64,000 bases of DNA from NCBI GenBank assembly GCA_051294375.1, contig CM119268.1, positions 15,280,172-15,344,171 on the forward strand, read 5' to 3'. This document shows, piece by piece, positions 1-64,000 of the stretch (positions are counted from its first letter, which is position 1; each line of letters begins with the position of its first letter). The stretch comes from Paraspadella gotoi. Lineage: Eukaryota > Animalia > Chaetognatha. The notes beneath the pieces were generated by a model. The model saw only the letters and a program-made list of their open reading frames with translations. It searched no databases and was not told where the DNA came from. The translations under genes were made by a program, and so were the position numbers.

Positions 1-350
1 TTTTTAAACTCATATTTTGTCAACGATGATACTTCATTATATTTACTAATTTTATTCAATCAGATTTTGTCCTTTTTATAAAATTTTAAAGAAAATTAGT
101 GTTTATAGCGTCGATTGACTTAGATTTGAGCTCTTACAGAATGTAGTATCTTATTAGTTATTTCGTCATAGCTTTTCTAAAATCGTAAACTAGCTCGTAA
201 ACACATTTAGTTTTTATAGCCATTATAAACATTCCCTAAAAATGTCAGATTCATCAATGACTTAGCGTCTAAACCTTGAAATCTTTTTTTTTCTTTTGTT
301 TTTTCTTTTCTTTTTTTCTCTTTTTGTATTTTTTCCGTCCGTCCCTGAAG

Positions 351-431
351 ATGGAGTTGCAGTGCTGCTTCCCGAAGCCGGCGATCGTCGACGAGTGCAA
401 CCAAATTCGACGGAATCTCGCCTGCATCGTG
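351..431 (+). CDS. Exon 1 of the Cys/Pro-rich gene (MELQCCFPKPAIVDECNQIRRNLACIV)
   Basis: ATG at 351; donor GTG|GTGCGA at 432 (an in-frame alternative GT exists at 429). Confidence 0.7.
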
Positions 432-2195
432 GTGCGACTCTTAACGCAACAGCTGATGTTGTTGAAGCTGTGTTTTTTTACTGAGGGTTATCCGTTATGA
501 TTTCCCTTCTATTTCCCCGATATCCCCTTTTTAACGCGGTCCCACCCAGGATCCCTGCTGCCAAACTTGTCCGCCTTTCGAAGAGCACATGTTGCCGCCC
601 GCGGGAATTCCCACCGCCGAAGGGGAGACGGTCGCTCAGTGTCTCAATTGGAAGAAACCAAATTGCATCGATCCTTGCAAAAGGTAGAGAGAAATTTATA
701 TATTCACCAACATTGTTTCTTGTCTTTGTTTCTCGCCACTTTGTCACGAGGAAATAATTAGAGCGTATTGAAAGTGGCCGTTGGCTGTTGTGATTGTCTG
801 AACCCGAAATCCCTACACTGCATTCTCCTCCAGTCTACCCCAAGACTGCAACATCAGCTGCAAAAGGATTCCACCGCTTCGCCCAACCTTTCCGACTTGC
901 CCAACGAAGCGAGAGGATGGGATTCTCGGCTACAAGGGAGGAGCGGCGTCTATGGGCGGCGTCATCCTCGTTCCTCTGACGGGTCCAAGGTTAAATCGAG
1001 ATAATTATCAAAGATAAAGGTTTGGTTTGGATTCATTATTGATAGATATATTAGACTTCTTTAGAGATATTATTTGAAAAAATACCCTTTCATCTATGTA
1101 GTTGTACTCTTAAGATATTCAGAATTAATTTCTTGAACACATTTTGAAATAAAATTGGTTTCATGTAAATGGTATTATTTTATCTAGACAAAAGAACTCC
1201 CTTCATCTTTTCTTTTAGTTGCTCCCAACCTTCCAAGCCGGATTGCTGCCGTCCACCGCCTTGCTGCCCTCCTAAACCGTCGTGCTGTCCGCCTCCCAAG
1301 CCTTCATGCTGCCCTCCTCCCAAGCCGCATTGCTGTCCTCCTCCCAAGCCGCCTTGCTGTCCTCCTCCCAAGCCCCATTGCTGTCCCCCGAAGCCGCCTT
1401 GCTGTCCTCAACCCAAACCGCCTTGCTGCCCTCAGCCCAAACCCTGTTGTCCCGAAAAAAAGGCTTCTTGCCAGCCAACGCCCGTGACCATTCTACTTCC
1501 TGTTCCGTCCTCCAGGCACCATGACAATCACGACGACCATCACCATCACGATCACCATGACGATCACAAGCACCGAGACAAATGTGGCCACAAGAAACCG
1601 GAGAGCGACCGCAAGAGATCCAGTTGCTGCGTGGCTGTTCCTTTGCCCGGACCCAAGCCCTGCTCTCTGCCCATCGTCTTGTTGCAGATGGAGAAGGGGA
1701 AGAAAGGTTATCACGACGATTGCATCTCGAAAACCAAACAACAATGCGGCGACGATTGTCCCGAGTGCGCCATCGGTGAGTCGCGCCACATCTATCATTA
1801 TCTCTTTTTTTTTTCTGTTTCTGTTTTTGTCGTTGTTGAAAGTTTTTTTTTCGAGGGAAGTTTAATTGTTTTCTTTTTTGCAGTGTATCTTTTTTTATCT
1901 TAAAAATCACTTATAAAGTAGTCTATTGTTCTAAATCTCATATTTAACAAATCGCCCCTCGCCCGTAAACCCTTCACCCTCCCCCCTCATTTTCCGCACC
2001 TCCCATCCCCTTTCAGAGATCCACCATCGCACCGTCTACCCCAAGTGCGAGGCGATGGTGCCCGGCTACGGCGGTCACGTGCCCGGCATCGTGACGTGCA
2101 AGTTCGGGAAGACGTTCGGGCGAGAGACACGGGAAGTGCTGCAGAAGGTCTTCTCGACGCCATACCTCAGAGGGCAGAAGAAGAAGATGTGCTGA
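351..2195 (+). CDS. Five-exon gene for a 368-aa Cys/Pro-rich protein with a His/Asp tract and a C-terminal FAM166/CIMIP2-like (DUF2475/PYG) motif; probable sperm-tail or ciliary structural protein
   Basis: Manual splicing join(351-431,550-683,834-989,1219-1775,2017-2195) gives 1107 nt with no internal stop. All four introns are GT..AG with matching phases (0,2,2,1) and pyrimidine-rich acceptors (CCCACCCAG, TTCTCCTCCAG, TTTTCTTTTAG, CCCCTTTCAG). The protein starts MELQCCFPKP and ends ...MVPGYGGHVPGIVTCKFGKTFGRETREVLQKVFSTPYLRGQKKKMC*. An acceptor-like AG precedes the ATG, so further 5' exons are possible. Confidence 0.85.
550..683 (+). CDS. Exon 2 (DPCCQTCPPFEEHMLPPAGIPTAEGETVAQCLNWKKPNCIDPCK)
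   Basis: Acceptor CAG at 547-549; donor AAG|GTAGAG at 684; open Cys/Pro-rich frame in phase with neighbouring exons. Confidence 0.8.
834..989 (+). CDS. Exon 3 (SLPQDCNISCKRIPPLRPTFPTCPTKREDGILGYKGGAASMGGVILVPLTGP)
   Basis: Acceptor CAG at 831-833; donor AAG|GTTAAA at 990; 156 nt, symmetric phase 2-2. Confidence 0.8.
1219..1775 (+). CDS. Exon 4: CCP(P/Q)PKP repeat tract, His/Asp tract and Cys-rich linker
   Basis: Lies within ORF 1169..1903. Acceptor TAG at 1216-1218; consensus donor G|GTGAGT at 1776. Repeat units differ at synonymous positions, as expected for coding repeats. Confidence 0.9.
2017..2195 (+). CDS. Exon 5 (terminal) with a FAM166/CIMIP2-like PGYxGHxPG..FGxTFG motif
   Basis: Acceptor TTTCAG at 2011-2016; translation EIHHRTVYPKCEAMVPGYGGHVPGIVTCKFGKTFGRETREVL...; TGA at 2193-2195; third codon positions are strongly GC-biased. 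Confidence 0.88.
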
Positions 2196-3813
2196 AGGAG
2201 GGGGGGGATCGAAGTTAGGGGAAGTTGTTGTAGAGTTGGCGACGACTGACGCGGTTTTGGCTGCTTCGCTCCATTTTCTTTCTTTTATCGAGAAAATTAA
2301 TACAGTTTTCGGTAAACTATTCTAACTGTTTTTTTTTTGGTCATCCCTCTAATCAATATTAATATTTCCACTATATTAGTTTAATCGGTTTAATTTTACT
2401 TTTGCAAAAGAAGAAACTTTGTTCTTTTACTTGAAATGAACCAACGGAGACGGGTGCGGCTGACATCTTTAGTTTAATCTGTAAAACATAAACAAAATAA
2501 CAGTTCAAAGGGAAACCGATGAAATGTTCGTAAAGTGTAGCAGATGTAGCTTGGCTATAATTTATTGTATAATTTATAGTATAAATATGACAATCTTCAA
2601 TTAGCAATGAATATTGAGGTTATGTTATTTGTCTAAGTGTTTGTCAAAGTGCTTTAAATCCTCCTTGACATAGCCGGGATTTTGATCTTTGCCAACACAG
2701 ATTTAATGTGGAAAATAAAAAAGTCAATAACGAATAAACGATCTCGAAAACGACGAGAAAATAAATCAATACTTTTACTTTTTTATATGAAGGAATTTCA
2801 ATCTTATCGTCTGTGTCATCGCAATCGACGTTTCTTCGAAATTTATGCCATTTTGATTCTGCCGGTTTCCCTTTTGGAATCCCTTTCGGCGTCCTGGGAG
2901 CTTTTGCGTGCCCAGAATTTTTTTGAATTCTTTCAAAATTAACTTTACTTTTTTCTATTAATGGGGAAAAAAAGGGGAGGGGGCCAAGACGGATAGAGTT
3001 CCCAAGAAAGATACCATATTTGTCTCCGGGGACCTTAATTATTTTCTAAAAAAATGGAATTATGTTATTAGATTGATCAAGAATTTATTATAATATTCCT
3101 TTATATCAAATTCTGGTGCAGTGGAAAAAAAACTAGTAAAAGTAACACAATAAACTTATGGCAATGCTTAAACACATGTTTTTTAATAAGTTACATTCTC
3201 GTCGTTCTCAACTGATGACCATTCGGGGCAATCGGACCCTACTAACTCTTAGTCGAATTTTTGCGCGTTCAGTGACATTCTCTGTCCCTCTCTCCATCAC
3301 TCGCTTAATACATCTTGGAAGCGGCGAGGACGCAACCCGCGCTTGGCCGGAAATAGGCCGGCGTTGCTGCCGACAACTGGCCGGCGTTGGCGACAAAGTC
3401 TCGGGAAAGGAACGACGCTGACGACGACGACGACGACGACGACGATAACAAAGATGACGGAAAAAAAGTTGTTACTGAGATTGTCTTACCCGTTATAGAT
3501 TGTCAAGCAGAGATGCGATTAGTCGTGAAATCTCTCTCTCCTTCTCTCTCTCTTCATCTCTCTCTCTCTCTCCATATGTTCGATTTATTCCGTTATCTGT
3601 ATCTCCCCTAGATATTGCCGTCGTTAAAATACTTTCCTTTTGTTTGGTTTGCGTTGCCAACGAGCGCGAATCGCGATTACATCCTGGTCCCTTGAGAAAG
3701 TCCCCTACATCCGGGAGTCGAAGCGAAGATCATCGGCCGTGACGCGATAACGACAGCTAATTGGGGTCGTCCCTTCTCCCAGGAGGTACGAGAGAGAGTG
3801 AGCGAGATAGAGC

Positions 3814-14751: not shown

Positions 14752-17700
14752 CTCTCTCTTCCTCTCCGCATTCGTTACACGAAATACGCGCCATTATGAG
14801 CATTATCCCGTTTTTCGACAGGCGCTCATACTGCTCTTAAACCCACTTAGCCTAGACCTCTCCCCCCAGGCATTACCCCCCAACCCCAACCAATGTATTC
14901 CCCGTTTTTTCCCACCCCTTACCGTCCACTCCCCCCCCGCCCCCTCCCTCCGCCGGAATCGGGGGATGACATTCGAGAGGCTTAACCCAATTTCCTCGTC
15001 GAGTCTTCGATCCTCCCTTCTGCGATTCTTTGTTGACCGACGACTGACCTCATCTCTCGAGACGCAGCGGCGGCGGCGGCGTCGCCAGAGTCATTGACTG
15101 GGGCGGAGGGGAAGGAGGTTAGGGGAGAATTGAGAAGAAGGTTAAAAGGGGGCGGGGAACAGGGGGTCGGGGAAAAAAAAGTCTTGGTAAGAGAAGATAA
15201 AAATTCGGGGAAGTGGTTTGACCCAGTGACGGTGGACAATAAATGTCATGAAGGAATAATTCAGGAGAGCGGGAAGGAAAGAGTTACAATCTCTTGACTT
15301 TCGTTTTATACCGGATTAATATTGTTATTTTCTAATGTTCGATTGAGGGGCTGATTTTAAATTTCAATCAGTCAGTCTTTCTTTCCGTCCGGAAATCCAA
15401 AATAGAATTGGAAAAGCATCAATTGACTTAATAGATAAACTATTTTCATCAGTAAAATAGTTTGGAATGAGCAACGAAATGGACGACAGTCACTACTACT
15501 TAGACCGCAACGAACGATTCATTATCAGCAAAGTCATCTTCGTTTGAACGCAATTATGATCTCTCTCTCTCTCTCTTCTATCTCTCTCTCATCTCTCTCA
15601 CTCTCTGCTCTCTCTCTCTCTCTCTCGTTTTCTCGATCAATGCAGCTGATCCAGTTGAGAGTCATAACACGGGGATGTCATAAAATCGACTCGGGACAAA
15701 CTCTTGATCCGAGTGGGTGAATGAGTGAAAAAAAGAATGGGTATGGGTTGCGGCGAAAAGTATGTGGAGTATATGTTTTGTTAGAGGGAGAATTGGTATC
15801 TTGTTTTGTGACAAAACAAAATAGTAAATAAAACATACAGATTAAAGACCACAGAAAAAAAAATCATTTAACGAAACGTCATTTGCGGTCAAACTTGCGT
15901 TAATACCAAGTCACATGGAAGTAGGCACGCAACTATATCGTTTTAATAAGTAGGCTTTTTACATCTCCCCATATAGCTACGGATCACCCCTCACACAGGC
16001 TCATATATCGCCTCGCATCGTATTGCGTTATTACATCGCTTCTGTGCCCCATAAGCAATCACGCTCGCGACGATGATATGACGATAATAAAAAGGAGAGA
16101 GAAAAAAAGTCGTTTAACGACGAGTTTCGCCGTCGTCGCCTCCGTGTCTTTGTCCGCCCCGACGCTCCGTTCGCTCCCGATGTCAAAAAATTGTTCATCC
16201 AATGGCGAAGATGGTGAAAAACAGTCGGAGTTTGCAATCTTTGCAATCATATTTACAATTAACGGAACAAACAAAAACAAAGTCCCGCCATCTACATAAA
16301 CGATAAACTCGATGACGGCGAAAGAGGACGTAATGGTCGCCTGGTGACCACGTGACCGAGATTCACTCGGCCTCGCCTTTTCCTTGGGCGGTAGTCGCGC
16401 CGGTTGAGGGCGGCATCTCTCCGAAGACCTTCGACGACCGACTTGGCACTCGGCGGCGGCACCCTAGGGGACTTTGAGGCATTTTTTTTTCCGTCGGGTT
16501 GCGGCAGAAAATTTTTCGATTACTCCCGTTCGTAATTTTTTGCCTAAACTTTGTAAAAAAAATTTCGAGACTGAGAACTTTTTTCAAATTTGTTATTTTA
16601 AATTTTTACTTTTTTCAACGTTACGACAGCTCCGTCGAAGAGTCATCGTTATTTTTCCAGCGCAAATCGAAAAATCGGTGGGCCAAGCGATAAAAAGCTA
16701 TAATTTATGCTAATTACTGTTTTCTGTGTTTATGACCACCTCGATCATTGCGGACCGAACGATTGGTCAGAAAAATATTAGCCCTCGAGTGGTCAGAAAT
16801 GATCACTCCTATCCCTCGTCTGTTAAACTAAGCTTTTAATCCCCGATGAACGTTCAAGCTCAACTTTGTTCTCGGAGGCAAAGTAAAAAAAAAGGGAACA
16901 AAGCAAAAAAAAAGAAAAAAAGAAAGAAAAAGGAGGCGAAAGAAAACAACGCATCCCCTCGCGTTTCTTTGTTCAACCAAACGATGTCGACGCCCGAATT
17001 ATTTCGACGTCGCCCTTTTTCTTTTTCTCTTTTTTTCCTTTTTTATTTGTTTCTTTTCTTTTTGCGTCTCCCCCGTTTTCTTTCTTTTTTTTTTCAAATT
17101 TCCTTTTTTTTTCTTAAAACTTTTGTCGCGGCTGGATTCTTTTTACGACCGATAAGGGGCCCGGCCGTCGCCTCGTCCTCCCCCTACGGTCGTATCGGCC
17201 CGCGACCGCGCGACGACCTCCGTGGCCACGCCCACCACCCACTCTTGACGACGAACACCCCTCGTTCCGACCTTGCACGGAATTGCGATCGACACCCTCC
17301 GTTGACGACGGGTCACGCCTACCACTTTTCGTGTCAATCGCGTTTGAATTCGTGGCGTTCAAAGCTTCTTAATCTCGATCGTGAATTCGTCATCACTCAC
17401 TGAAAATGTCGTCCCTTTACCCTTAATTTCACATTAATGTTTCACACTTCATCGCGACTCATTCTTTTTCATTCGTTGCCACATTTCAATTAGTCGACAA
17501 AAAAAAAAGAAGTAATTTTCACTACCAACCAATAACCACTCCACCACGAAGTCCTATTTTCACCCTCCCCCTCCAGCCCCCCCCTCCAACCCCGGCACCC
17601 TCTCCTCCGCCACGCGAAGGTTTCGCGGCGGCGAGACTCGCATTTTGTTGATTCCTGGGAGAGACATTCGATCCGCGAGCAAAGTAGCGACTCGGCGCCG

Positions 17701-20700
17701 CCGCGACACGATGGTCGGATCGGGTGGGGGAGGAAGCGAGGGTGGGAAGGCAGGGGTTGTGGATTGTGTGGAAAAGGATGGGGGGGAAGTGTGGCCAACG
17801 TGGTTGAGTCTCTGTCGGTCGCTTCAAAGAAAGTCGACTGTGAAAGCAGTTGGGACGGGCCAGGGTTTTAACTTTGTGGGCATAATGAAAAGAACTCGGG
17901 TGAGTTTGATTGGAGGACGGTGAAGTTGCCCGCGTTGAAGTCTTACGGTGGTCAAGTGTGGCTTGTGGATGAATTTCCGCATGACTGGACCATAACTCTT
18001 TGAGAGTTGAGACCGAGTGAACAGGAAAAAAAGAGGCAAAGCCTTACTACAACTTTTTTCGGACTGGGGATTCACTCGACTCATTAGCTACGTTATGTTA
18101 CAACATGAAGCCCAATCTTAGCAAGGGTTAGAGTGGGGTTCGTCAGATCCCGAAGAGTGGAGACCTCTATCGCTCCTTCATTATTGTTATGAAAATTTAT
18201 CTCGTCCTTGTTAATCGTTAAATAAATGGAAAAAGACACTTTTCGGCCGAGAACGGAACACTTCCCAAACTGGTAAAATTTTATGTTCTCAGATAAGAAA
18301 AAAAAAGCATAAATCCGTATTCATAAAGGGAAGACTTTGGGGGAGGAACAGGGAGGTGGAGAAGTGGGGGAGGTGGCGAGGCGGTTGAGGCAAGGACTAA
18401 GAAAGAATAAAAAAAAAGAAAGAGGTTTTTTTCTATATTCGGCAGCGACGATAAAACCCCGAAGCGAAGAAAATATGTCAACCATCTCGGGGATGGCCGC
18501 TCGCTTGGCTCAGAACACTGCCCTGCCCGCGGCCTCTCTGGCCCTCCGCCCTCCGCCGGCTGCGCTCGTGACACACCACGCTGCCACCGCTGCCGGCTTT
18601 GCCGCCGCTGACACCGCCGACGCCGCCGACGCCGCCTCTTCGTCCCCCAGGACCTCATATCTTTTTACGACGCCCCTCTCGGCCTCCGCAGCGACGACCA
18701 AGGCGACAACAACGACGACCAACTTTTTTTCGGGGGCGACGTTAATTTCGTCCACGGACGACGGTGACGACGACTTCGACGACGATGACGACGACGAAGG
18801 CGACGACGATGACGCCGATTCAGTAACGAACCCGTAAATAAAAAGGCGAGGGAGTTTATTCTGTAGTTACAGTGTCCAATAGCGTGGAGGCCAATGGGCC
18901 GAGAGACACTTGGCCTAGAAAGGTCATTCCGAAAAAAAAATGAAGGGCCAACACGAGTCGTATTTAGGTTTAGAATTAGAATAAAAAAAAACCACATTTA
19001 TTTCAATCTTTCAACATGTTTAATCGTTTACTAAACAGAGTAAAATTAAAAAAAAACTATTAATCTCATGTTTTTTTTACATAGATTATCAAAGTGTCAA
19101 TGCGTCCTTATGTCCCAATTTTAATTTGCGTAAATAATCTCAAAAAACGGGTCGACGATGACGGCGTGACGACGAAGCCACGGCCCCNNNNNNNNNNNNN
19201 NNNNNNNNNNNNNNNNNNNNNNNNNNNNNNNNNNNNNNNNNNNNNNNNNNNNNNNNNNNNNNNNNNNNNNNNNNNNNNNNNNNNNNNNNNNNNNNNNNNN
19301 NNNNNNNNNNNNNNNNNNNNNNNNNNNNNNNNNNNNNNNNNNNNNNNNNNNNNNNNNNNNNNNNNNNNNNNNNNNNNNNNNNNNNNNNNNNNNNNNNNNN
19401 NNNNNNNNNNNNNNNNNNNNNNNNNNNNNNNNNNNNNNNNNNNNNNNNNNNNNNNNNNNNNNNNNNNNNNNNNNNNNNNNNNNNNNNNNNNNNNNNNNNN
19501 NNNNNNNNNNNNNNNNNNNNNNNNNNNNNNNNNNNNNNNNNNNNNNNNNNNNNNNNNNNNNNNNNNNNNNNNNNNNNNNNNNNNNNNNNNNNNNNNNNNN
19601 NNNNNNNNNNNNNNNNNNNNNNNNNNNNNNNNNNNNNNNNNNNNNNNNNNNNNNNNNNNNNNNNNNNNNNNNNNNNNNNNNNNNNNNNNNNNNNNNNNNN
19701 NNNNNNNNNNNNNNNNNNNNNNNNNNNNNNNNNNNNNNNNNNNNNNNNNNNNNNNNNNNNNNNNNNNNNNNNNNNNNNNNNNNNNNNNNNNNNNNNNNNN
19801 NNNNNNNNNNNNNNNNNNNNNNNNNNNNNNNNNNNNNNNNNNNNNNNNNNNNNNNNNNNNNNNNNNNNNNNNNNNNNNNNNNNNNNNNNNNNNNNNNNNN
19901 NNNNNNNNNNNNNNNNNNNNNNNNNNNNACCAAAAAAAAGAAAGAAAGAAAAAAGAAAGAAAGAAAGAAATGATACGATATGTTCTTTAGCGCTTAACTC
20001 ATGACAACAAATTTGGATTGCCCCTTCTAAAAGAGTGCAATTTGAACGAAAATCTTCACAGAACCAGAAGCACGCGCAATTGCCATTAACCATTCCCGAT
20101 TANNNNNNNNNNNNNNNNNNNNNNNNNNNNNNNNNNNNNNNNNNNNNNNNNNNNNNNNNNNNNNNNNNNNNNNNNNNNNNNNNNNNNNNNNNNNNNNNNN
20201 NNNNNNNNNNNNNNNNNNNNNNNNNNNNNNNNNNNNNNNNNNNNNNNNNNNNNNNNNNNNNNNNNNNNNNNNNNNNNNNNNNNNNNNNNNNNNNNNNNNN
20301 NNNNNNNNNNNNNNNNNNNNNNNNNNNNNNNNNAGAGAGAGAGAGCGTGGGCCGTGTGCGAAAATTAGCGGCTGGGTCCATGGTCAACTAAAAGCCCGTG
20401 ACCAACGGCTCCGAGAGGAATTAGGCCTAAGCTCGATCTTTGCCTCTGAAGACATTAAGGATGAAGTCAATCGTTGTAATGATTGACTGCAAGGGACGAT
20501 CATTATTACACTTAGTTTGTAGATTTATTTTATTGACTTTTCTCATAAAAAAATTTTATTCTTCGGAATCTTTGTTTAGCCCTGAGTACAACAAAATATC
20601 GATACTTAATTTTTCCCTCGACATTTTTCTACAAACAAATAGAGCCGCCATACGACTAAGATTTCTTTATTAGGTTTCTATAGTATTAATCCACCCTAAT

Positions 20701-22351
20701 TCTTAACCTACAATCCAGCCACCCTAACCCCCGCGACAAAGCCGGTCGCCGCCTCGCGGTGTCATCCCATAACCATTTGCCGCGGAAAAGCCAAGGCCGC
20801 ATCGAAGCCTAGGGTTTTTCTTAATGTAAACAGCGTCTCGTCAAATTCGAGGGATAGGACGAGGACGACGATGAGAACGACGACAAAGACGACGAAAAAG
20901 ATGACGACGATAGCGCGACGACGACGAAGTCGACAACAACAATTACGAGCAGGTACCGAAATAGCATCGGGGAATTTATTCTAATTGCATTAAGGTTTTG
21001 GGAAAACTTTAAACTCCCCGTGTACAATGCTCGATATCGCAGGAGTTTATATTTAAAGCAAAGTCGATGACGACAACGACAGCGATGCCAAATATTCTGT
21101 GACGAGAAATCTACTAAGAAGACGAAGAAGATGACAAAACTGACGACAAAGACGATGACGTCTCGCAATCAACGACGAAGGCGAAGATGACAAAACTGAC
21201 AACAAAGACGACGACGTCTCGTAATCAACGACAAAGACGAAGAAGATTACTAAATCTACGGCGAAGACTTCGGCGCCGCTCGAGTTTTGGGTGGCCTTGC
21301 GTAAAACGCCCGACACAAAAGCCCGTTCGTCGCCCGTCGCTCGGTGACACGGGACCCGCTTCGCTATTATGACTTATGTATGAGCCAGAGACGTTGACGA
21401 CGACGACTGCGACGACGACGAAGACGACAAAGACGAGCATTTAAGACCGAATATTTAGTCTCCCAGAAAACCGGGGCGGAGGTGGGAGTCTATTTGCGTT
21501 GAGTGGTGAGAGAGAGAGGTGGAGGCGCAGAGGCATAGCGAAGGTGGGTTTAGGAGACACCCTCGGATTTCATTAGTTAGTTCTTGATTTTGTAACATAA
21601 GCTGCTCAGAGAATCAAAGTGGAGACAAAGGAATTGATTAGAAGGGAGAAATGAATCGAAGACAAAAGATTACAGAAATAAAGTGAGTTAAAGCAAAAGT
21701 GCCAGCCGACCACCCAAGTAGACTAGGTAATAAAAGTCTCCCACCCTAACCAGACTCCCCGAAGAAGGACGTCACCCGCCATCTCGTCAAGTTGAGATAA
21801 AATTACAGGGACGAATGGGCGTCGACGTCACTAGCGCCCCATGTCGGATGGAGAATCAGTGATAAGCAATGTTAAGGAAATGAATGTAGATAATGATAAA
21901 AAGACCGACCGTTCGAAATAGTAAAAATTAGTGAGAGAGAAGCAAGATGAATGATGATAACTAAAACCTTCCGCGGGTGAAAAACCTCGTGAGACAAAAA
22001 AATATTCGTGAAACTGCGCGAGAGTCGGATTTTTTTCCTAATTTTCAACGTAATGATTTTTTTCGCTAATTTTTTCCTCCGTAATGAGCTCCGTGTCAGC
22101 TTTCACGGGCACAGCGAGAATTTCCGTTTTCTAACACTCATAAGTTCAATAAATACTGATAAAAAGAAAAAATAATGATAAACTAAAGTGTTTTAATGCA
22201 AAGTAGTCGTCTGTTGCTAGAGTAACTATTTAAGCAGGGGTTCAACATTTTTATTAGAGAACACCTTGTTTAACGCGTATGAATGACACAGGTTGAGGTA
22301 ATCATTATTGCCCTCTCTCTCTCTCTCCTCTCGTCTCTCTCTTCTCTGCTC

Positions 22352-22412
<61 letters not shown>

Positions 22413-22567
22413 CTTGCTCTCTTCCACGGGGTCACGAGTTGATGTTTCTTTGTAAAAAAGAAAGATGGCCGGCAACTGCAGACCGTTCCTTGATTGAGAC
22501 GGCTCCTCTGTCGACGCACCGCAACGCATCTTTCTCTCTCTCTCTCTCTTCTCTCTCTCTTCTCTCT

Positions 22568-22604
<37 letters not shown>

Positions 22605-23821
22605 CTCTCTCTCTCTCTTATTTTCCTTCTCTCTCTCTCTCTCTCTGAAAACGAAGAAAAGGCTCATTCCATTATTTTTTTTTGGTCCGCGCGCGTCGCA
22701 ATTTCTCCGCAAATGAAGTTTTTATGCATTAGTTTTCTTCTTTCTTTTTTTTCTTTCCTCGTCTGGACTGAGTGTCCAGTCGAGCGACCGAACTGAGGAC
22801 GAGGGTTTTTCTTTTTTTGCCCAGAGTGTAAATTGACCAGTCGATCACTCGAGACGAGAGGTGGTGGGGTTGGGTAGGTATTGCTATTGTGTCGATCTCT
22901 TTGTCCAAAGTATGTATGTATGTATGTATGTATGACTGTATGTCTTTGGATAGAAAACCAGGGTGTCGAGGGCTAACAAAGGTTATTCGATGCCTGTTAA
23001 ATTCGCAAGGTTTTATTAGATGATGTAACATGAAAACTTGTCATTGACAAGGTGAGGGATTAATTTCCCTGAGCCAGATTTAACTTAAACTTCTTCACTA
23101 AAAATTCCGTTGTGAACAGCTGGACGACGTCTTCCCCGATTTGAACTTGATATCGACTATCGTCCACTCATGACGTGGTGACGCCAATTTCAACTTTGGC
23201 ATCGCTGATTTTTCTTTCCAATTTAAATATCCTATGCGCTGAAGAAGGCTAGCGAAACAAGGGCCGAGTTTGAGAAAAAATAAAACTTTGTATACTCCCT
23301 ATATCTCTGTCTAAATCTAAATCATAAAATATGTGATTGAAAAGCTGAATTGCCTAAAAGTATTTATATTACTCACCTACATATATTATATCATCTTCTC
23401 TGACGAGTGACTCAAGGTGTCTGTACTGTTATGAAGTTATTCTTTAGTTCCTGAATTTCTTTTCGAATCGGTTGAACTATTTTGTCGATTGTAGATAATT
23501 AATAATAGAATAAATAACAGTTTTTTTCACTGCTGTCTTATAATAGGCTTCGCCGATGATATCGACGACCGACGACGACGACGACGACGACGACGACTAC
23601 TTCGACGGGAAAAACTGCCGCTGATGGCGCTGTAATCATCGTCGCGGCGTCGAGAGTCGATCGAGGGACGCGAGTGATTTCTCGCGGGTTATGAGCCGAA
23701 CTCTTCGCCTCTCTGTGTCACATTCACGGGGTCAATTGGGGTCAACGAGGTCGGGCCGCTTTCGATCAACTTGCCGAGGAGAGAGATGGGGAATGAAGGG
23801 AAGGGAAGAGAGGAAAGAGAG

Positions 23822-23836
23822 GAAAGAAAGAAAGGA

Positions 23837-23916
<80 letters not shown>

Positions 23917-23928
23917 AAGAAAGAAAGA
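23822..23928. repeat. (GAAA)n microsatellite
   Basis: Direct reading; a (TTTC)n tract also lies at 29092-29183. Confidence 0.9.
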
Positions 23929-25166
23929 ATGATAAATAAATAAAAGTGCTTTAGAAAGAAAGAGAGTAAAAAGACAGAATTAAAAAAGAGAGAAAAAGAG
24001 TAAGAAAGAAAATTAAGACAGAAAGATCGATAAACTGCAGGAAAAAGAGAAAGAGAGATAGACAATAAAAAAAAAGAGAAAAACTTCTAGAGAAGTCGTT
24101 CGATCCGTGCCAGGAAATAGGTGGGTGGAAAATAGAGGGGAAAGAACGAGAAAGTCTGGACATAGAGGGCTGGTCGGGACGACGACAAAGACAGAGAATA
24201 GGACAAGAGAATGAGGAGAGCATAAGGCAAGTGGACGAGCGATAATAATACTGTGACCGGATCGAAAAAGAGAACAGTCAAGAACGTTGCTCATTAGACT
24301 AATAATAAAAAGAAAGAGCAATCGAGAAACTAATTTTTTCAGTTATATTTAGGTTTTACATTCTCGCCAAATTGTGTTCTCTGTGGACATTCTCACCGGT
24401 ATATAAAAATTAAAAATACATGTTATCCTGATTTACTACATAAATCTGAAATCTTAAATAATTTTCGTTTTCATCTCAGCTCTTTATTTTCTATATTGCG
24501 TACTGATAACAGAATTTGGCGAGTAAGTAAAAGTTTATATATCTCTAACCTGATCCTGAACTCCATTCAATGCCATCCAGCATCCACCCACCAATCCACC
24601 ATCGTTTGACCTCCCACGCCTCCCCCCACCCACTCCCGTCCAACCCTTGACCAAATCTCTCTTTCGGTGTCATTCCTCTCTGGGTCATCCAAAACGAGGC
24701 TGAAGGGAGGGGGGGGGGTAGGGAGAGGGTTTTGGGGGGGTGAGGAGAAAAAGGGGACCGGTTGGTGGGCGGAGACTTGAGGGGTATGGCTGGAAAAGGG
24801 TGACTGGGAAAAATAAGAGTGTGCACTAACGAAGGAGATGGCGCGGCGTTGCTCACGAGAGACACATTCCTTCATCTCTTTCGCACCTTCAGCTTCTGCG
24901 CCCTCAGGGTACACGCTTGGCACAGTTTTTTGGTCAAGGCGCCGGCATCTTCTTCCGCCGACATCTCTTTTTTGTCCCCACAGCCCCCTTCTCCCCGCCC
25001 GTGCCCTCTCGGCCCCTTTTTCTCCTCTCGAACCCCCTTCCCCCCCTTGACTCCCAAACATCCGGCGCGGGGTCTGGAAGAGGTCAAAGGTCGCGGTCGA
25101 GGTCGTCGACTTCCTCGACTCGCAACAGGGAACTGAGAGGGGCGAAAGTGAAACGTCACGCGGTCG

Positions 25167-25215
25167 GGTCACGTGACCTCGTGAAACGCGCGTCAATCGT
25201 CACGTGACCTCCAAT
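25167..25215. promoter_or_regulatory. Paired GTCACGTGAC E-boxes (USF/TFEB CLEAR-type) plus CCAAT in a CpG-rich segment
   Basis: GGTCACGTGACC at 25167-25178, GTCACGTGAC at 25199-25208, CCAAT at 25211-25215. Motif match only. Confidence 0.45.
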
Positions 25216-25309
25216 GGAAACCGTCACGCCCCATGAAATCGCCGGTCGGGAGTCTCATGGTTTTTTTTTTTATTCCCTTCTCCTTGTGTCTCTGTCTCAG
25301 TCTGTCTGT

Positions 25310-25455
25310 CTTTCTCTCTCTCTCTCTCTCTCACTCTCTCTCCTCTCTCTGGGTTTTTAATTTCCTTCCTCTCTCTTTCTCCTTTCTTATTTTCCTGGGA
25401 GAACCAAACAACCAAACAAGAAAAACCATAAAAGAGAAAGAGTTAAGAGAGAGAG

Positions 25456-25492
<37 letters not shown>

Positions 25493-25941
25493 TAGAGCGA
25501 GAGAGAGGAGAGAGAGAGAGAGAGAGTGGAGAGAGAGTGAGGGAGAAAGAGTCGGACCGAAATAAGAATAACGCCCCTGTGCATGAACAAAAGCTGCCGC
25601 ACGCGATCTTGCCGGCGCGTGAAATAGGAGACGTTAGCGTCGCGTCTATTTTGCGAATCTCATTTTCGGCAAATTCCTCGAAAGACCGGTAAACAGGCGG
25701 CGGAAGCGGTGGGCGAGCGGTGGTGAGTGGGGGCGAGCGGCGGTAGAGCGGCGGCGAGCGGCAGGTCAGAGGCGGATCGTCGGTGTGGGGTGGTAAGGGG
25801 TGGTAGGGGCGGGCGGAATTTCCAATTCGTGGACCGTCTCTCTCTATTCTCCGCCCCCCGTGTCTCTGTCTTTCTACTTCATAATTTCTCTCTCTCTGCC
25901 ATCTCTCTCTCCTCTCTTCTTCTCTCTCTTCTCTTCTCTCT

Positions 25942-25982
<41 letters not shown>

Positions 25983-26393
25983 TCTCTTTCCTCTCTCTCT
26001 CTGGGAAAAACAATAGGCAAGACAATTCAGCGCAAAAAAAAAAGAAAAAAAAAGCATAGATAGCTTCCAAAGTAATAATTTGAATTTAAATGTTTCCCTG
26101 ACTTTAGTTACAAGATAAAGAAATAATATTTATTTTACTGCGGTTACTCCATTATAACTCTATTATAGAGTGCACTGTTTTTTCTCGAAATATTGTTTCG
26201 ACATAATTGTTTTACAAAGCAAAAAAAGCCTATATACGAANNNNNNNNNNNNNNNNNNNNNNNNNCTCTCTCTCTCTCTCTCTCTCTCTCTGGTTTTTAT
26301 TTCCTTCTCTCTCTTTCTCCCTTTCTTATTTCCTGGGAGAACCAAACAACCAAACAAGAAAAACCATAAAAGAGAAAGAGTTAAGAGAGAGAG

Positions 26394-26430
<37 letters not shown>

Positions 26431-26991
26431 TAGAGCGAGAGAGAGGAGAGAGAGAGAGAGAGAGTGGAGAGAGAGTGAGGGAGAAAGAGTCGGACCGAAA
26501 TAAGAATAACCCCTGTGCATGAAAAAAAAGCTGCCGCCACGCGATCCTTGCGCCGTGAAATAGGAGACCGTTAGCGTCGCGTCTATTTTGCGAATCTCAT
26601 TTTCGGCAAAATCTCGGAGAGGAGACCGGGAAACAGCGGAGAAGAAACAAGCGGCGTCGTAAGCACAACATAACCGGTGGCGGCGGTGAGTTGAAGTGGG
26701 CGGCGAGCGGCTGGGTAAGCGGCGCGGCGAAGCGGCAGCAGATGGCTATCGTCGAAGGTGTGGGTTGACGTGGTCGCCCGTGAGTGGCCAAGCGGCTAAG
26801 GTAGGTATAGCGGTTGGTTTATTTTATTATTGGGGGTAGTAAGGCGGTGCGGCATTTTCCAATTCGTGGACCGTCTCTCTCTCCATTCTCCGCCGTGTCT
26901 CTCTGTCCTTTCTACTTCATATTTCTCTCTCTCTGCTCCCTCATCTCTCTCTCTCTCTCTTCTCTCCTCCTCCTCTCTCTCTCTCTCCTCT

Positions 26992-27039
<48 letters not shown>

Positions 27040-27325
27040 TTCCTTCTCTCTCTGGGAAGAAAAAAAACCAAAGGCAAGAAATTCAGCGCAAACAAAAAAA
27101 AAAAAAAGAAAAAAAAAGCAATTAAGATTTCGCTTCCCCAAAGTAATAATTTGAGATTTTTTTTAAATAATGTTTCCCTGGCTTTAGTTACAAATAAAAG
27201 AAATAATATTTATTTTATGCGGTTACTCCATTATAAAACTCTATTATAAGGCACTGTTTTTTCTCGAATATGTTTCACATTAATTTAATTGTTAAAAGCA
27301 AAAATTAAGACTTATTATTAAAACA
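25310..27325 (+). repeat. ~0.95-kb segment present twice on either side of a 25-N gap (likely assembly overlap)
   Basis: 25310-26240 is re-read at 26266-27325, with N25 at 26241-26265. Copy B has only one copy (~41340-42430). Confidence 0.85.
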
Positions 27326-28788
27326 GAAGGAGGTGCTCAAAAAATGTCCGACTCTAAAAAAAGAAAAAGTCTCGTTTCTCCCTTCCCGCTTCCCTCGATT
27401 CTCCGCTTCTCACAATTTTTTTTCGCTTCTTCCCAAGGGATTTTTCATATTCGTGGTTGTGACGTCGACGTTCTTTAGAGCGCTTCTTCCGAAAAACACG
27501 CGGAGAGAGGAATTTGACCACCAGGGCGGAAAGATTGAGAGAGAGAGAAGGAGGGAGAGGTGAGAGGATGAGATCGGGAGAGACGAGAAGAGAGAGAGAA
27601 GGAGAGTGCAGAGAGTGAGAGAGAGGAGGAGAGAGGAGAGAAAAGAAAGAGGATAGATAGATAGATAGAGAACAGAGAGACCAGAGAGGCAGAGAGAGGA
27701 CAGAGAGAGAGAGCGAGACAGAGAGAGTTAGAAACGTCGAGGAGCGATTTTGTCGCGGAATTTCTCCAGAGAGACATCACACGTTTTCTCTCGTCGCACT
27801 TCGTCGTCGCCGTCGTCGTCGTCGTTGTCTCCGCAAACTTTCGCTGACGTCGCCGAAATATTTGAGGGCGCCGTCAATCGCTTGCATCGTTATAGAAGAA
27901 AAAAAAATCCGATTGAAGTAAAATATATAAAATACATGATATCTAAAAATATATTAAAGGCGTTTCAAATTAAATTAGGTACAAACAACCCACAAATTAA
28001 TCCGTAATGAACTCTCGAGATTTTACAAGGTAAACAAACAGCAACAATAGAATGAGACGCATCATAAAAAAAAAGGGACGTGAAATTGTCGCGAGATAAA
28101 TCACACGAGGCGGCGCTCGTGTCTCCTGGGCTCCGAAAGGAAGGACGCGACGTCTTAAGCGGCGGACTGGGAGCCCTTACCCAAGATCCCTTACCTGAGA
28201 TTCCCTTACCGGGGAAACGCCTCTGCCGGCGTCGAGGGAGGACGCCGCCTCAATTTTTTGCTGATTCTCCAAGAGAGAGAAGAGATTTTATGGTTTTTGC
28301 GGAAAAAAAAAAACGCGGAAAAATCGGGGGAAGATGGCGGGAAAAATTTGAATGAACGAAAGAGCGGAAAATAAAAAAATGAAGAAAAACAAAAGGGATA
28401 AAGTGGAGAAAAGGCGAAGTTTGGTGAGTCTTTGACACATATCACAATAATCACTACGCGAGAAATCACAGGAAGGAATTCACGATTTGATCGCATCAAA
28501 TGTGAGGATCGATATTCGCTTAAGAGTCACGACTGAGTTTCAGACGTCGTTACCCGAATCAAAATCGATTCTCACTTAAGCGTCACGCTCTTTCCATTTG
28601 ACTCTCTCTCTCTCTCTCTCNNNNNNNNNNNNNNNNNNNNNNNNNNNNNNNNNNNNNNNNNNNNNNNNNNNNNNNNNNNNNNNNNNNNNNNNNNNNNNNN
28701 NNNNNNNNNNNNNNNNNNNNNNNNNNNCTCTTTCTTTAATCATCCCAGACATCGTCCATTCAAATCCACATCAGCGTCGCATCTTTTC

Positions 28789-28856
28789 GTCGCTAACCGT
28801 TTGCGTTGCTACGCTAATGGTTGCCTAGCGACTGCTCCGGACTCGTTGCTAACCGT
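28789..28856. promoter_or_regulatory. RFX X-box-like motif cluster
   Basis: GTTGCCTAGCGAC at 28820-28832 (one mismatch from GTTGCCTAGCAAC), flanked by GTCGCTA and two GTTGCTA half-sites. Motif match only. Confidence 0.35.
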
Positions 28857-29090
28857 CAATAAGCTTGAGTCGGGGGCGCGTGCGAGATATACGCTGGGTG
28901 AAAGAAAAAAAAACGGATAAAGAAAACCGGGGATTTTTTTTTTCAATGCGTTTGGTTTTTTGTAAGGAGGAAAAAGTGCGTGGAATTGAATCGGCAAGAT
29001 TCTTTTTTCTTGTTACTTTTCTACTTTCTTTCTTCTTTTCTACTTTTCTTTTTTTCTTGTTTTCTCTCTAGCTTTATATTTTATACTATC

Positions 29091-29182
<92 letters not shown>

Positions 29183-30556
29183 TATTTAGTTTTTTTCTCA
29201 TTTTATTTGTTTTTATTCATGATCTCAATTATTTAATTCAATTCAACACCCATTCTTTTATGAATCTTGACGAATGAATGTCCCAGACGAAGGACGAATA
29301 AATATGCTTACTAACTACTTAATTCAGAAAATTCAGCGAGAGACGNNNNNNNNNNNNNNNNNNNNNNNNNNNNNNNNNNNNNNNNNNNNNNNNNNNNNNN
29401 NNNNNNNNNNNNNNNNNNNNNNNNNNNNNNNNNNNNNNNNNNNNNNNNNNNNNNNNNNNNNNNNNNNNNNNNNNNNNNNNNNNNNNNNNNNNNNNNNNNN
29501 NNAGAGAGAGAGAGAAATCTTTGGCAGAGACGCGAATATGAGAACTTAACGCATTGCCATAGAAACTCCTGGGAATTCAAGGATTCGCAATGACGCAAGA
29601 AGTGGGTGTGGCAGGGAGAGGGAGAGCGAGACGATGGTATGGATTAGGTATGGCGGGGAGAGGGAGAGAGTATTGGTAAAGCCTCGGGATCGAGGTAAGT
29701 GTTGGAGAGAAAGAGCAAGATGGGTTGCTTTGCTGAGACAAAGTGTACACGGACAAGGTTGGTGAAGTAAAATTCGTATAATGAATAAAGATCAAGGTTC
29801 AATTAACGATATCGTCTTGTCCTGACAAGAAATTAAATATCTTTAAAGGACTACAAAAAAGATGAATTTGTTTTGAAAACAAAACTCATCATACAAATTA
29901 ATGATTAAATTGATCGTTATCACAGACGTTATCACAGACGTTATCACAGACGACCTCGTCGTCGTTCTCGTACTTCTCGTCATCGTCGCCAACTTTTCAA
30001 CTTTCGGGATTTTCATGCAAATCGTATTTAAGTTTTAAAGGCTAAAGATCATAATTTCCGGTGATTTCTGTAAAAAATACAGATCTTTCTTTTTTTCTGT
30101 AAAGTGATAGCCGTTCACTATGGATGGGAAAATTATTCTTTAAATTTTTTTGAGTGTTTTTAGATCGTCTTTCTGAGAGTACCATAGACATTAGACAGTC
30201 TACATATTAAGCTACTGTTTATTTAGCTTCGTCAATCATATAATTAGATGTTTGTTTATCATTATCTCAAATATCTTTACCCATAACGGCAGCGCGGCCA
30301 CTGGCTTTCTACGGGATTTTCGAGGTCATAAAGAAAAAAAAACTTGTAAAGTTCTCACTTTGAATTTTGATGAGTCGAGTTGAGAGGTCGGAGTGAAAAG
30401 TCGGGTTTTTTGAAAAGAGGGGGGAGGAGTGTCGCGAGTTATTTTCGGATTGTTGAGGGAAAAGGGTTCTTATAACCGAGGGGTGTAGAAGGGGAATCGG
30501 TAGAGCACTTTGGGGTCTCGCGAGCGTGAGGTGTATGAATATTTAGCGATGACTGA

Positions 30557-30594
<38 letters not shown>

Positions 30595-31023
30595 ATAGAG
30601 AGCGAGCGATTCTCACCTTGCCTCCATCGCATCCCAAGCGATTCGTTTTCGCGGAGGCGACTGTCATTTCTTCGAACCTTTTTTTTTTTCGTTGGATTTT
30701 TTTCTCGGAAATTCTTTTTCGCCCTTGGAGATGATGATGCCCAGGGCGCAGCTTAAGACTTTCCTCCGGATCTCTTAATTATTTCCAGCTTTCTTTCTTC
30801 TCGTATCTTCGCCCCCCCCCTACCAAAAAAAAAGAAGATATCCCCGTTTAAATTTTATTTTGATATTTTTTGTTCAAACGCTCGATTCGAGGGTCAAGAG
30901 GGAATCGCTTCCGTTTGTCCCTCAACCATTCAGTCGATTCCCCTCGTCGTCCCATCTTTCTATTTTCGGCCATTTTTCTTTTCTTTTTCTGGGAAAAAAG
31001 ACTCGATTTTTATGACTGGATCA

Positions 31024-31056
<33 letters not shown>

Positions 31057-31176
31057 TGTTGTCGTCGTCCTTCCCGTCATTCAGGTGTTGCCGCTCCGAG
31101 CCCCCGTTCCCGTTCCCGCTTTCGCATCTCCCCTGAGCTTCCATCCATTTTCGTAGTCATTGTGCTAAAATCTTCC

Positions 31177-31252
<76 letters not shown>

Positions 31253-32090
31253 TTCGTACAAATAGAAGGCGTTATGGTCGTCCCATTCTCGCGGCGTCCT
31301 CGAAGACGACAACGACAACGACAACGAGGAAGACGACGAGTAGGATAACGATAATGACGGTCACGACAATGACGACAATGAAAGTAACTTTGACAAGGGG
31401 AAGACGACGAAGAATACAAAAAAGATGACAAAGAAGAAGAAGACGCTAATGAAAAAAAAATTATACTTTCAATTTTCAGGAAAGACATCGGCGTGTTTCA
31501 AGCGATTTTTTTACATATGCTCCCTTAACCTAATGAGCTTTAGGGATGCGAATCCATGTGAAATCTCTACAACCAATATAACATTTTTTTACGTACTACA
31601 TTCATTCAATAAATATGGCAGAATCTTGGGCGTGAACTTTGAACTTTGAACAATGGACCTTGGACCGGCTATGTTCTCGAGCTCGCTCTCTCGATCGTTT
31701 GTGAATACCCGAAAACGTGGAACCGATCGCCGTCCACAAAAATACTACAGACTCGTCTGCATTTCACAGGTATTCATCAGAGACACTTAAATATCCGCGT
31801 ACATTGGGACTAATCGACGGTTTCGTCGGCATCGGCCTCATTCCCGAATGTTATAGACGTCGTTTTTCGACAGCAAAAGGCGGCGGCGAAAGCAATGTCG
31901 GCAGCATCGGCGGTGTGGACAAGCGGCGTCGGCAAAAAAAGAATTTCCCATCAAATCCTACGGAAACGAGACTTTCTTTTCTGCGCCTCAGCGATCGAGG
32001 GTCCGAATGATGTAGGAATAAAAAAGCCGTCGATATAAAAAGGAGGAGGCGACGGAGGAAGCGATGGAGGAGTTGATGGAGGAGCCCAAG

Positions 32091-38000: not shown

Positions 38001-38356
38001 TGTATTGAATGGCAAAGTTTGAGTCGTCTGTTGCTAGAGTAAACTATTAGCAGGGGTTCAACATTTTTTATTAGAGAACACCTTTGTTTAACGCGTATGA
38101 ATGACACAGCGTCTGAGGTGGTAGATCCCCATTTATTGCCCTCTCCTCCTCCTCTCTCCTCTCTCTCTCTCCCTCTACTTCTCTCTCTCTCTCTCCCTCT
38201 CCTCTCTCTTCTTCTCGCCTTTGCTTCTCTTCCACAGACGCGGTTCACGATGTTGATGTTTCTTTGTTAAAAAGAAAGATGCGCCGCGCAACTGCAGACG
38301 TTCCTTTGATTGAGGACGGTCCTCTGTTCGACGCCACCGCAACGCCATCTTCTCTC

Positions 38357-38398
<42 letters not shown>

Positions 38399-38400
38399 TG

Positions 38401-38445
<45 letters not shown>

Positions 38446-48600: not shown

Positions 48601-49310
48601 AGCGATGCGAGGAGGCGATGTGCAGGAGGCGATGGAGGAGCGATGCGAGGGAGGCGATGGACTGGAAAGTTAGGGAGCGCAGGCGATAGAGGAGCGATGG
48701 GAGGCAGTTCGATGGATGGAGGGCCGCATGTGAAGCCACGGTGAAGAGGAGACGATTGGAGGGAGGCGATAGAGGAGGTTACGGAGGCAGGCCGTATAGA
48801 GGCAGGCGATGGCAGGCAAGCGACTCTGGAGGATGGCGGATGAGAGGTGATCGAGCGAGGCGATGAGAGGAGCGGTGATGAAAGGAAGCCGATGGAGCGA
48901 GGCGGATGGCATGGCTAGGCGCACTGGAGAGGCGAGGAGGAGGGCGCATGGAGAGTGATGGTAGGAAGGATCGAGGAGGAGGTTATGGAGGGCAAAGTAG
49001 GATGGGGAGGGCAGTGATTGGAAGGAGTGATGGAGCGAGCTTGGATGGAGGGAGGCCGATGGAGGAGGGTAAAGGCGAGCGCAAGTGAATGGGAGGAGGC
49101 GAGCAGGAAGGACGGCGTACGGAGAAGGTACGGAGGAGTTGCATAGCAGGAGGCGGATTGGAGGAAGCGATGGATAGGAGGCGAAGGATGGGCGATTGAG
49201 GAAGCAATGGCAGGAGNNNNNNNNNNNNNNNNNNNNNNNNNTGGAGGAGGCGATGGAGGAGGCGATGATGGAGGCCTTGGAGGAAGCGATGGAGGAAGCG
49301 ATGAAGGCAT
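48590..49310. repeat. Degenerate (GGAGGAGGCGAT)-type purine-rich minisatellite
   Basis: Repeating GGAGG(A)AGCGAT / GGAGGCGAT units, cleaner after the 25-N gap at 49217-49241. A short stub of the same repeat lies at 32042-32083. Confidence 0.75.
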
Positions 49311-63862: not shown

Positions 63863-64000
63863 ATATCATTAGAAAATTCATTCCAACGACAAAACTTAAG
63901 ATCAAAAATTAAATTATTTATTATTCTTTCTGTCTCCGTCTCTTTGTCTGTTCTTTATAACTTACCCTGTCTCTATCTATCAAAGAAGTCATCCAACCCC

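What the first reader, a model, noticed from the sequence alone, without database searches (positions are those of the whole stretch)
351..2195. Hidden 5-exon gene joining SMCP-like CCPPKP repeats to a FAM166/CIMIP2-type microtubule-inner-protein motif
Seen: the ORF track shows only exon 4 in the correct frame and misses the last exon. Splicing five exons gives a clean 368-aa protein with ten CC-doublet Pro/Lys repeats and the C-terminal motif MVPGYGGHVPG..KFGKTFG. Known: PGYxGHxPG..(F/Y)GxT(F/Y)G is the signature of the FAM166/CIMIP2 (DUF2475, PYG-repeat) proteins that bind the lumen of axonemal doublet microtubules. CCPPKP repeats resemble mammalian SMCP and SPRR/cornifin cross-linked structural proteins. 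Inference: a lineage-specific protein that couples a tubulin-binding module to a disulfide/zinc-cross-linkable scaffold, plausibly stiffening sperm-tail or ciliary microtubules. I do not know this architecture from described proteins.
Basis: partly seen in the sequence, partly recalled or inferred. Interest (0 to 1): 0.8.

Follow-up and report, generated by a model that had tools for sequence, protein, structure and literature searches.

The report
Cysteine-rich cilium clip with proline repeats
A real, spliced five-exon animal gene (likely from an arrow worm) joins one FAM166-type motif, predicted to grip the inside of cilium or sperm-tail microtubules, to a cysteine/proline repeat that its close relatives lack, and it belongs to an apparently unnamed family that likely uses this motif to anchor cross-linkable scaffolds and, in one branch, an adenylate kinase.

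Summary
Five exons give 368 aa, and all four GT..AG junctions appear in spliced contigs from two studies, including repeats joined to exon 5. Exon 5 passes Pfam PF10629 (CIMIP2/FAM166) and best matches the last repeat of FAM166B.

The reading changes in one respect: this is not an SMCP-FAM166 fusion. The gene is the orthologue of unnamed proteins that share its N-terminal Cys block and its C-terminal motif. None of the 8 aligned carries the CCPPKP array or the His tract. The array arose in this lineage by tandem expansion and shows third-codon-position-biased divergence.

The wider novelty is a family of FAM166B repeat-4 derivatives with two added, co-occurring cysteines (110 of 249 units have both, 137 neither). 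It has at least six branches, one fused to adenylate kinase (3 clusters).

Most likely the protein is a disordered, disulfide/zinc-cross-linkable microtubule inner protein of sperm or cilia. Tissue and tubulin binding are untested. The arrow-worm label comes from earlier scan notes; my look-ups found no earlier scan note on this family. New variant of a known kind; interest 0.5.

The parts
262..350 (+). 5' UTR (at least), with a T-rich tract at 284-335
   Evidence: X2 contig runs 262-430 without a break; tract
351..431 (+). Exon 1 (aa 1-27), start of the conserved N-terminal Cys block
550..683 (+). Exon 2, core of the conserved N-terminal Cys block (no Pfam family)
   Evidence: 74% identical over 43 aa to orthologue P0015; exons 1+2 are 39-44 of 71 identical in 8 orthologues
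834..989 (+). Exon 3, with the conserved REDGILGY-type motif
   Evidence: 11-24 of 52 identical in 8 orthologues
1219..1775 (+). Exon 4: lineage-specific insert plus the start of the C-terminal module
1244..1465 (+). Cys/Pro/Lys tandem array: ten CC doublets, nine 7-8 aa CCP..K units (21/24-bp DNA repeat)
   Evidence: absent from 8 of 8 orthologues aligned
1517..1574 (+). His/Asp-rich tract (12 His in aa 222-250), candidate metal-binding segment
   Evidence: only a below-cut-off, likely composition-driven ZrgA hit; absent from orthologues
1757..1759 (+). Cys304, the upstream 'CP' cysteine of the family-specific Cys pair
2017..2195 (+). Exon 5: single PYG (PF10629) unit, predicted helix, C-terminal Cys, stop
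   Evidence: 47-50 of 58 aligned residues identical in 8 orthologues
2055..2147 (+). PF10629 match (aa 323-353), including the PYG Pro and Tyr and the loop Cys337 (2097-2099)
2196..2400 (+). 3' UTR (continues past 2400; AATAAA at 2714, 2733, 2760)
   Evidence: X1 contig 4 is laid to 2400 and has 543 more letters; signals

Best explanation
The gene encodes a predicted largely disordered 368-aa protein whose single C-terminal PYG unit, likely derived from the last repeat of FAM166B/CIMIP2B, likely docks on the inner wall of axonemal microtubules, while its cysteine-rich remainder, enlarged in this lineage by a CCPPKP array and a His/Asp tract, would cross-link through disulfides or zinc to reinforce the sperm tail or stiff cilia. 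Shown: the gene, its splicing, the PF10629 unit with the tubulin-contacting Pro and Tyr positions kept, orthology to array-less proteins, the added Cys pair, and selection-like divergence of the array. Inferred by homology: docking between two neighbouring tubulins. Inferred by analogy with SMCP and ODF1: cross-linking and stiffening. Inferred, untested: sperm rather than sensory cilia, and arrow worm as the host.
For: PF10629 above cut-off. The best solved relatives are FAM166B chains, with the best stretch on their C-terminal repeat (7ung_H, E 1.3e-10). PMC10973386 (passages): PYG units form a loop plus short helix and touch two adjacent tubulins through the conserved Tyr and Pro, and PYG units also occur beside other domains (FAP252: kinase and EF-hands). 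The AF2 model of the module predicts one helix right after the loop (pLDDT 55, low). The tree puts 20 Cys-PYG units on one side of a branch (92/84) beside FAM166B repeat-4 units (93/82); neither branch is starred. P0105 keeps a repeat-1 unit and P0093 a degenerate repeat-3-like unit, linking the family to FAM166B. Sperm swap FAM166 paralogues in mammals (bioRxiv 2022.09.29.510157, passages). Cys content is 12.5% here, median 6.2% in 95 full-length family proteins, and 1.0-2.3% in 5 named FAM166B-like proteins. Differences among array units fall 32/30/134 on codon positions 1/2/3 (the pairs are not independent). No strongly hydrophobic segment in a simple scan (best 19-mer 1.37). A sister branch carries an AK1-type adenylate kinase, which fits a flagellar setting. 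SMCP-type Cys/Pro proteins form a disulfide-linked sperm capsule (PMC9956255, passage).
Against: There are no tissue or localisation data: the runs are coded and contig depth cannot rank expression. Only one PYG unit is present, against up to four in FAM166B; no second unit was found in this protein or 8 orthologues, and profile-profile scores of the N and middle blocks (9.5, 8.3) lay within the shuffled range (maxima 10.2, 11.3). The unit has a one-residue insertion and an extra Cys in the loop, which could alter binding. The array is missing from 8 of 8 orthologues, so it is dispensable for the family's core role. AF2 models are low-confidence (39.8 and 54.6) and give no information on Cys pairing. 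An 84-residue Pro-rich segment must fit inside or leave a narrow lumen (inference). The taxon was not tested independently.
Confidence: 0.5

Rival explanations
1. An ordinary FAM166-like ciliary inner protein paralogue whose CCPPKP array and His tract are tolerated filler in a disordered linker, with no cross-linking role of their own.
For: The linker differs in every orthologue: poly-Gln, Pro-rich or other Cys/Pro units, or almost nothing in P0015. The array is found in 1 of 176 proteins held.
Against: Array divergence is concentrated at third codon positions, and both Cys and the Lys are invariant in 9 of 9 units. Other members independently amplified Cys/Pro units, for example five copies in P0007 and a duplicated Cys-rich unit in P0011/P0017.
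Confidence: 0.22
2. A peri-axonemal or non-axonemal structural protein: the PYG clip ties a disulfide-hardened fibre or capsule (ODF-like or SMCP-like material, or the stiff cilia of mechanosensory organs) to microtubules from outside or at their ends, rather than sitting in the doublet lumen.
For: Bulky Cys/Pro array; altered PYG loop. Cys/Pro proteins build accessory sperm structures in mammals, and ODF-like genes are expressed in fly testes (PMC9956255 and PMC12584897, passages). Arrow-worm ciliary cell types are rich in young genes (PMC12460157, passages).
Against: The PYG proteins described in PMC10973386 are lumenal. The core motif is very well kept: 42.8 bits against a profile of 100 canonical units.
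Confidence: 0.2
3. A zinc-binding or zinc-storing protein (metallothionein-like CC doublets plus a His/Asp tract) that is merely parked on microtubules; metal buffering rather than mechanics is the function.
For: 21 Cys in 84 residues and 12 His in 29 residues; a weak ZrgA match on the His tract.
Against: The match is below cut-off and likely compositional; no metallothionein family was hit; both tracts are absent from orthologues.
Confidence: 0.08

Closest known systems
FAM166B / CIMIP2B (Pfam PF10629; PDB 7UNG, 7RRO, 9CPC, 8SNB, 8TO0), fourth PYG repeat; insect CIMIP2 CG18335-like proteins
   Same: PYG unit with the repeat-4 flank (..YP...(M/L)(V/I)P.Y.GHVPG...FG.TFG..T...L) at the C-terminus; Pro and Tyr contact positions kept; predicted disorder elsewhere.
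   Different: One unit instead of up to four; a one-residue loop insertion and two added cysteines; an unrelated Cys-rich N-terminal block; Cys content several-fold higher; a tandem Cys/Pro array and His tract.
Chlamydomonas FAP252 and FAP129 (PYG unit beside other modules; PMC10973386, passages)
   Same: PYG used as a portable anchor next to unrelated domains, like this family's adenylate-kinase fusion.
   Different: Partners there are a kinase with EF-hands or Mn repeats; no Cys/Pro scaffold is described in the passages read.
SMCP, SPRR/cornifin, KPLCE (mammalian epidermal differentiation complex)
   Same: Composition: short Cys-Cys/Pro/Lys repeats (Atlas look-alikes at 0.77-0.78); a possible disulfide cross-linking role.
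   Different: No Pfam match; SMCP is placental-specific (PMC10791643); a microtubule-binding module is not known in them (recalled). The resemblance is convergent.
ODF1/HSPB10 and Drosophila Mst87F/Mst98C
   Same: Sperm-tail structural proteins; ODF1 joins a folded small-heat-shock domain to Cys/Pro repeats (the repeat type is recalled; the HSPB10 identity and the fly genes are from passages).
   Different: Different repeat unit and different anchor domain; no sequence relationship tested.

Membership tests
PYG-repeat / CIMIP2 (FAM166, PF10629) | Profile match above the curated cut-off | tested here: met
   30.5 bits against 21.6
PYG-repeat / CIMIP2 (FAM166, PF10629) | Conserved Pro and Tyr of the PYG loop, followed by a short helix | tested here: met
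   P325, Y327 and GKTFG present; helix predicted at low confidence in orthologue fragment P0003
FAM166B orthologue group | Several (up to four) PYG repeats spread along the chain | tested here: not met
   One unit only; N and middle blocks not above shuffled controls. It is a derived paralogue, not a canonical FAM166B.
FAM166B orthologue group | C-terminal unit groups with FAM166B repeat 4 | tested here: inconclusive
   One side of a branch at 93/82, below the tool's starred threshold, on 59 columns
PYG-repeat / CIMIP2 (FAM166, PF10629) | Located in the lumen of axonemal doublets, binding tubulin | not testable with these tools
   No tubulin lattice model or localisation data available
SMCP / SPRR (EDC genes) | Sequence-family match (Cornifin/SPRR profiles) | tested here: not met
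   No such Pfam hit at E<=1 for exon 4; Atlas scores under 0.8
SMCP / SPRR (EDC genes) | Origin within the mammalian/amniote EDC locus | tested here: inconclusive
   SMCP is placental-only (PMC10791643); this array is a local 21/24-bp tandem expansion absent from orthologues. The host taxon and synteny were not tested directly.
Metallothionein / zinc-binding His-rich proteins | Profile match | tested here: not met
   Only below-cut-off ZrgA and Zip hits on the His tract; metal binding itself is not testable here

The most novel reading that the evidence does not exclude
One marine animal lineage (likely arrow worms) turned the last repeat of FAM166B into a portable, cysteine-pair-locked microtubule clip and multiplied it into at least six paralogue branches. 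These hang different cargo on the axoneme: self-cross-linking Cys/Pro scaffolds (this gene, with an independently evolved SMCP-like array) and an adenylate kinase. That would be redox-hardened, enzyme-equipped lumenal armour built from a MIP motif.
Probability: 0.3. Interest if true: 0.72.

Novelty: new variant of a known kind. Interest (0 to 1): 0.5.

Why it matters
If true, it shows a microtubule-inner-protein motif being reused as a modular anchor for cross-linkable scaffolds and for an ATP-regenerating enzyme. It would also show SMCP-like Cys/Pro repeats arising a second time, directly attached to a tubulin clip. That makes an open question testable, one raised in the mammalian sperm MIP paper (bioRxiv 2022.09.29.510157): how sperm MIPs diversify across animals. 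The array itself appears limited to one lineage and may be filler, so the family-level result (Cys pair, expansion, kinase fusion) carries more weight than the single gene.

Tried and rejected
No whole genome is held, so paralogue number and synteny in this genome could not be counted. The search for related loci in metagenome contigs: 20 stretches matched a pattern, 0 confirmed. No listed run is on record as RNA; the spliced contigs carry the evidence. Depth differs about 300-fold between X1 and X2, but contig depth cannot rank expression, so it is not used. Neighbouring transcripts and possible spliced leaders remain unexamined by read mapping. A degenerate PYG repeat in the N-terminal or middle block was rejected. 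AF2 of P0015 (pLDDT 39.8) and of P0003 (54.6) was too poor for a fold search, so none was run. The Atlas gave only lead-level hits, 0.77-0.78, for P0015 (PF15073 and PF10629 clusters) and for exon 4. For a taxon marker in the window: 148 of the 221 filtered ORFs (546 of at least 55 aa in all) were scanned against Pfam with none above a curated cut-off; Rfam found 0 matches; a published chaetognath spliced-leader motif had 0 matches. None of these bears on the taxon. Literature: a search on chaetognath/FAM166/CIMIP2/DUF2475/CG18335 gave 5 papers, none holding 'chaetognath'. No FAM166-type term occurred in 3 supplementary PDFs of PMC12460157; its spreadsheet was too large to read and could list such markers. 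None occurred in the main text of bioRxiv 2025.01.31.635879, whose supplements were not seen. Two searches for chaetognath sperm ultrastructure found no useful text.

Full report
1. Observation. The sequence and a splice check give exons 351-431, 550-683, 834-989, 1219-1775 and 2017-2195. They total 1107 nt and one open frame of 368 aa. The four introns are GT..AG, 118-241 nt long and 25-46% GC, against 55-61% GC in exons. Four runs were laid on 200-2400. In X1 and X2, from two studies, contigs at or near full identity skip exactly these four introns, and bins wholly inside introns have no depth. The runs are only guessed to be RNA, and no single contig spans the CDS. X3 and X4 hold no close copy.

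2. Anatomy. Residues 1-123 are a Cys/Pro-rich block with no Pfam family. Residues 124-207 hold 21 Cys and 37 Pro, with ten CC doublets. Residues 222-250 hold 12 His and 7 acidic residues. Residues 288-368 are the C-terminal module. The pI is 8.65 and there is no strongly hydrophobic stretch. Exon 5 matches PF10629 above its cut-off. Its best solved relatives are FAM166B chains, best on their last repeat. AF2 models of an orthologue and of the module are low-confidence, with one helix after the PYG loop. That fits disorder off the lattice but shows nothing more.

3. Relatives. Exon 5 found 17 clusters among 23 candidates at 77-86% identity, none named; 0 of 67 members of 10 of these clusters carry a name. 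I aligned 8 full-length ones that share the N-terminal block, leaving out fragments and the P0011/P0013/P0017 type. They match exons 1+2 at 39-44 of 71 residues and exon 5 at 47-50 of 58, but none has the CCPPKP array or the His tract. Of 176 proteins held, only the window's has three or more CC..KP units. The linker is a hot spot for independent expansions (five Cys/Pro units in P0007, poly-Gln in P0002/P0004). The array is a 21/24-bp tandem repeat. Its nine units differ 32/30/134 times at codon positions 1/2/3, with both Cys and the Lys invariant. This points to selection on the peptide, though the pairs are not independent.

4. A wider family. A profile search of 1.84 billion representatives gave 62 hits at E<=0.001. 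These include further unnamed single-unit proteins (0 of 44 members of 10 clusters named) and canonical FAM166B/CIMIP2-type proteins of insects, fishes, rays and a sponge (7 of 10 clusters carry a source record with a name). Among 249 PYG units held (many are near-copies), 110 carry both an upstream CP and a loop Cys with a one-residue insertion, 137 carry neither, 2 carry the loop Cys only (P0177 lacks its N-terminus; P0028 is a 52-aa fragment) and none the CP only. Single linkage at 70% gives six groups. A tree of 68 units on 59 columns puts 20 of the 21 units I had labelled Cys-PYG on one side (92/84), next to FAM166B repeat-4 units (93/82); the 21st, P0166, lacks the pair and falls among repeat 4. 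Neither branch reaches the tool's threshold. P0105 retains a repeat-1 unit and P0093 a weak repeat-3-like unit (9.2 bits), so descent from FAM166B by duplication and repeat loss is the simplest account. Loose ends, translated by hand, show a second family member in X1 (..IGNRSI-YPK.., like the P0084 branch) and others in X2 and X3. The branches are therefore likely paralogues, although mixed samples cannot be excluded. One branch is fused to an AK1-type adenylate kinase with an intact P-loop: 3 of 4 candidates (P0090, P0176, P0177, from two sources).

5. Organism. I could not test it: no genome is held, and no marker gene, RNA family or spliced-leader motif was found in the window. Five earlier scan notes on the same genome call it an arrow worm; they are unchecked leads. 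Relatives come only from environmental or transcript-sized contigs (about 0.5-2.3 kb) and the 'merc' set, which I recall as a marine eukaryote metatranscriptome catalogue. That fits a poorly sequenced marine animal but does not prove it. Arrow worms have young, duplicated gene sets in ciliary cell types (PMC12460157, passages) and tail-coelom spermatogenesis (bioRxiv 2025.01.31.635879, passages).

6. Mechanism. Shown: a spliced gene with one intact PYG unit and abundant cysteines. From established work (PMC10973386, passages): PYG loops contact two adjacent tubulins on the lumenal face through Tyr and Pro, and can sit beside unrelated domains. Inferred: the module clips the protein inside the doublet; the Cys304/Cys337 pair locks the loop by a disulfide or a metal; the N-terminal block binds neighbours; and the array and His tract add cross-linking or zinc capacity, as Cys/Pro proteins do in the mammalian sperm mitochondrial capsule (PMC9956255, passage). 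I give this 0.5. Filler in an ordinary paralogue gets 0.22, an extra-lumenal fibre or capsule 0.2, and metal storage 0.08.

7. Comparison and novelty. The protein carries a PF10629/PYG unit and would work like a FAM166. It is not a canonical FAM166B, because the multi-repeat test fails. It is not an SMCP/SPRR: no profile match, lead-level Atlas scores, and SMCP is placental-only (PMC10791643, passages). My searches turned up no description of this family or of a PYG-adenylate-kinase fusion in listings or in the passages read. Subscription papers, the Nature paper's spreadsheet and the preprint's supplements were not seen. Papers were seen as search listings plus keyword passages only: PMC10973386, bioRxiv 2022.09.29.510157, PMC12460157 (plus a term search of 3 PDFs), bioRxiv 2025.01.31.635879, PMC2481426, PMC8812575, PMC10791643, PMC12584897, PMC9956255. 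The scan's own index held no look-alike by sequence and nothing nearby; one note concerns shark FAM166B.

8. Verdict. A real gene with a correct domain call, and a new variant of a known kind. The headline fusion is a recent repeat insert, while the under-appreciated feature is the expanded Cys-pair PYG family with its kinase fusion. Interest 0.5.

Noticed in passing
P0090, P0176, P0177 (fragments P0095, P0100, P0165): Cys-pair PYG unit fused N-terminally to an AK1-type adenylate kinase with an intact P-loop, in three 90%-identity clusters from two sources; a candidate axoneme-anchored ATP-regenerating enzyme.
   Followed up: partly
P0105, P0166, P0093: Unnamed proteins that keep only some FAM166B repeats (1+4, or 3+4) and bridge canonical FAM166B to the single-unit family.
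   Followed up: partly
window 284-350: A long T-rich tract followed by AG just before the start codon looks like a trans-splice acceptor, but an X2 contig reads straight through it, so it is at least partly 5' UTR.
   Followed up: partly
window 2037-2087: Contigs of X1, X2 and X3 match only the PYG core and continue with different flanks, i.e. other family members.
   Followed up: partly
window 17155-32078 versus 32080-48620: A degenerate tandem duplication of about 15 kb (73-85% identity in blocks) with no Pfam or Rfam match in the scans run.
   Followed up: no
window 56568-57954: Tandem satellite with a unit of about 78 bp at about 96% identity; smaller tandem repeats at 55852-56278 and 63027-63863.
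   Followed up: no
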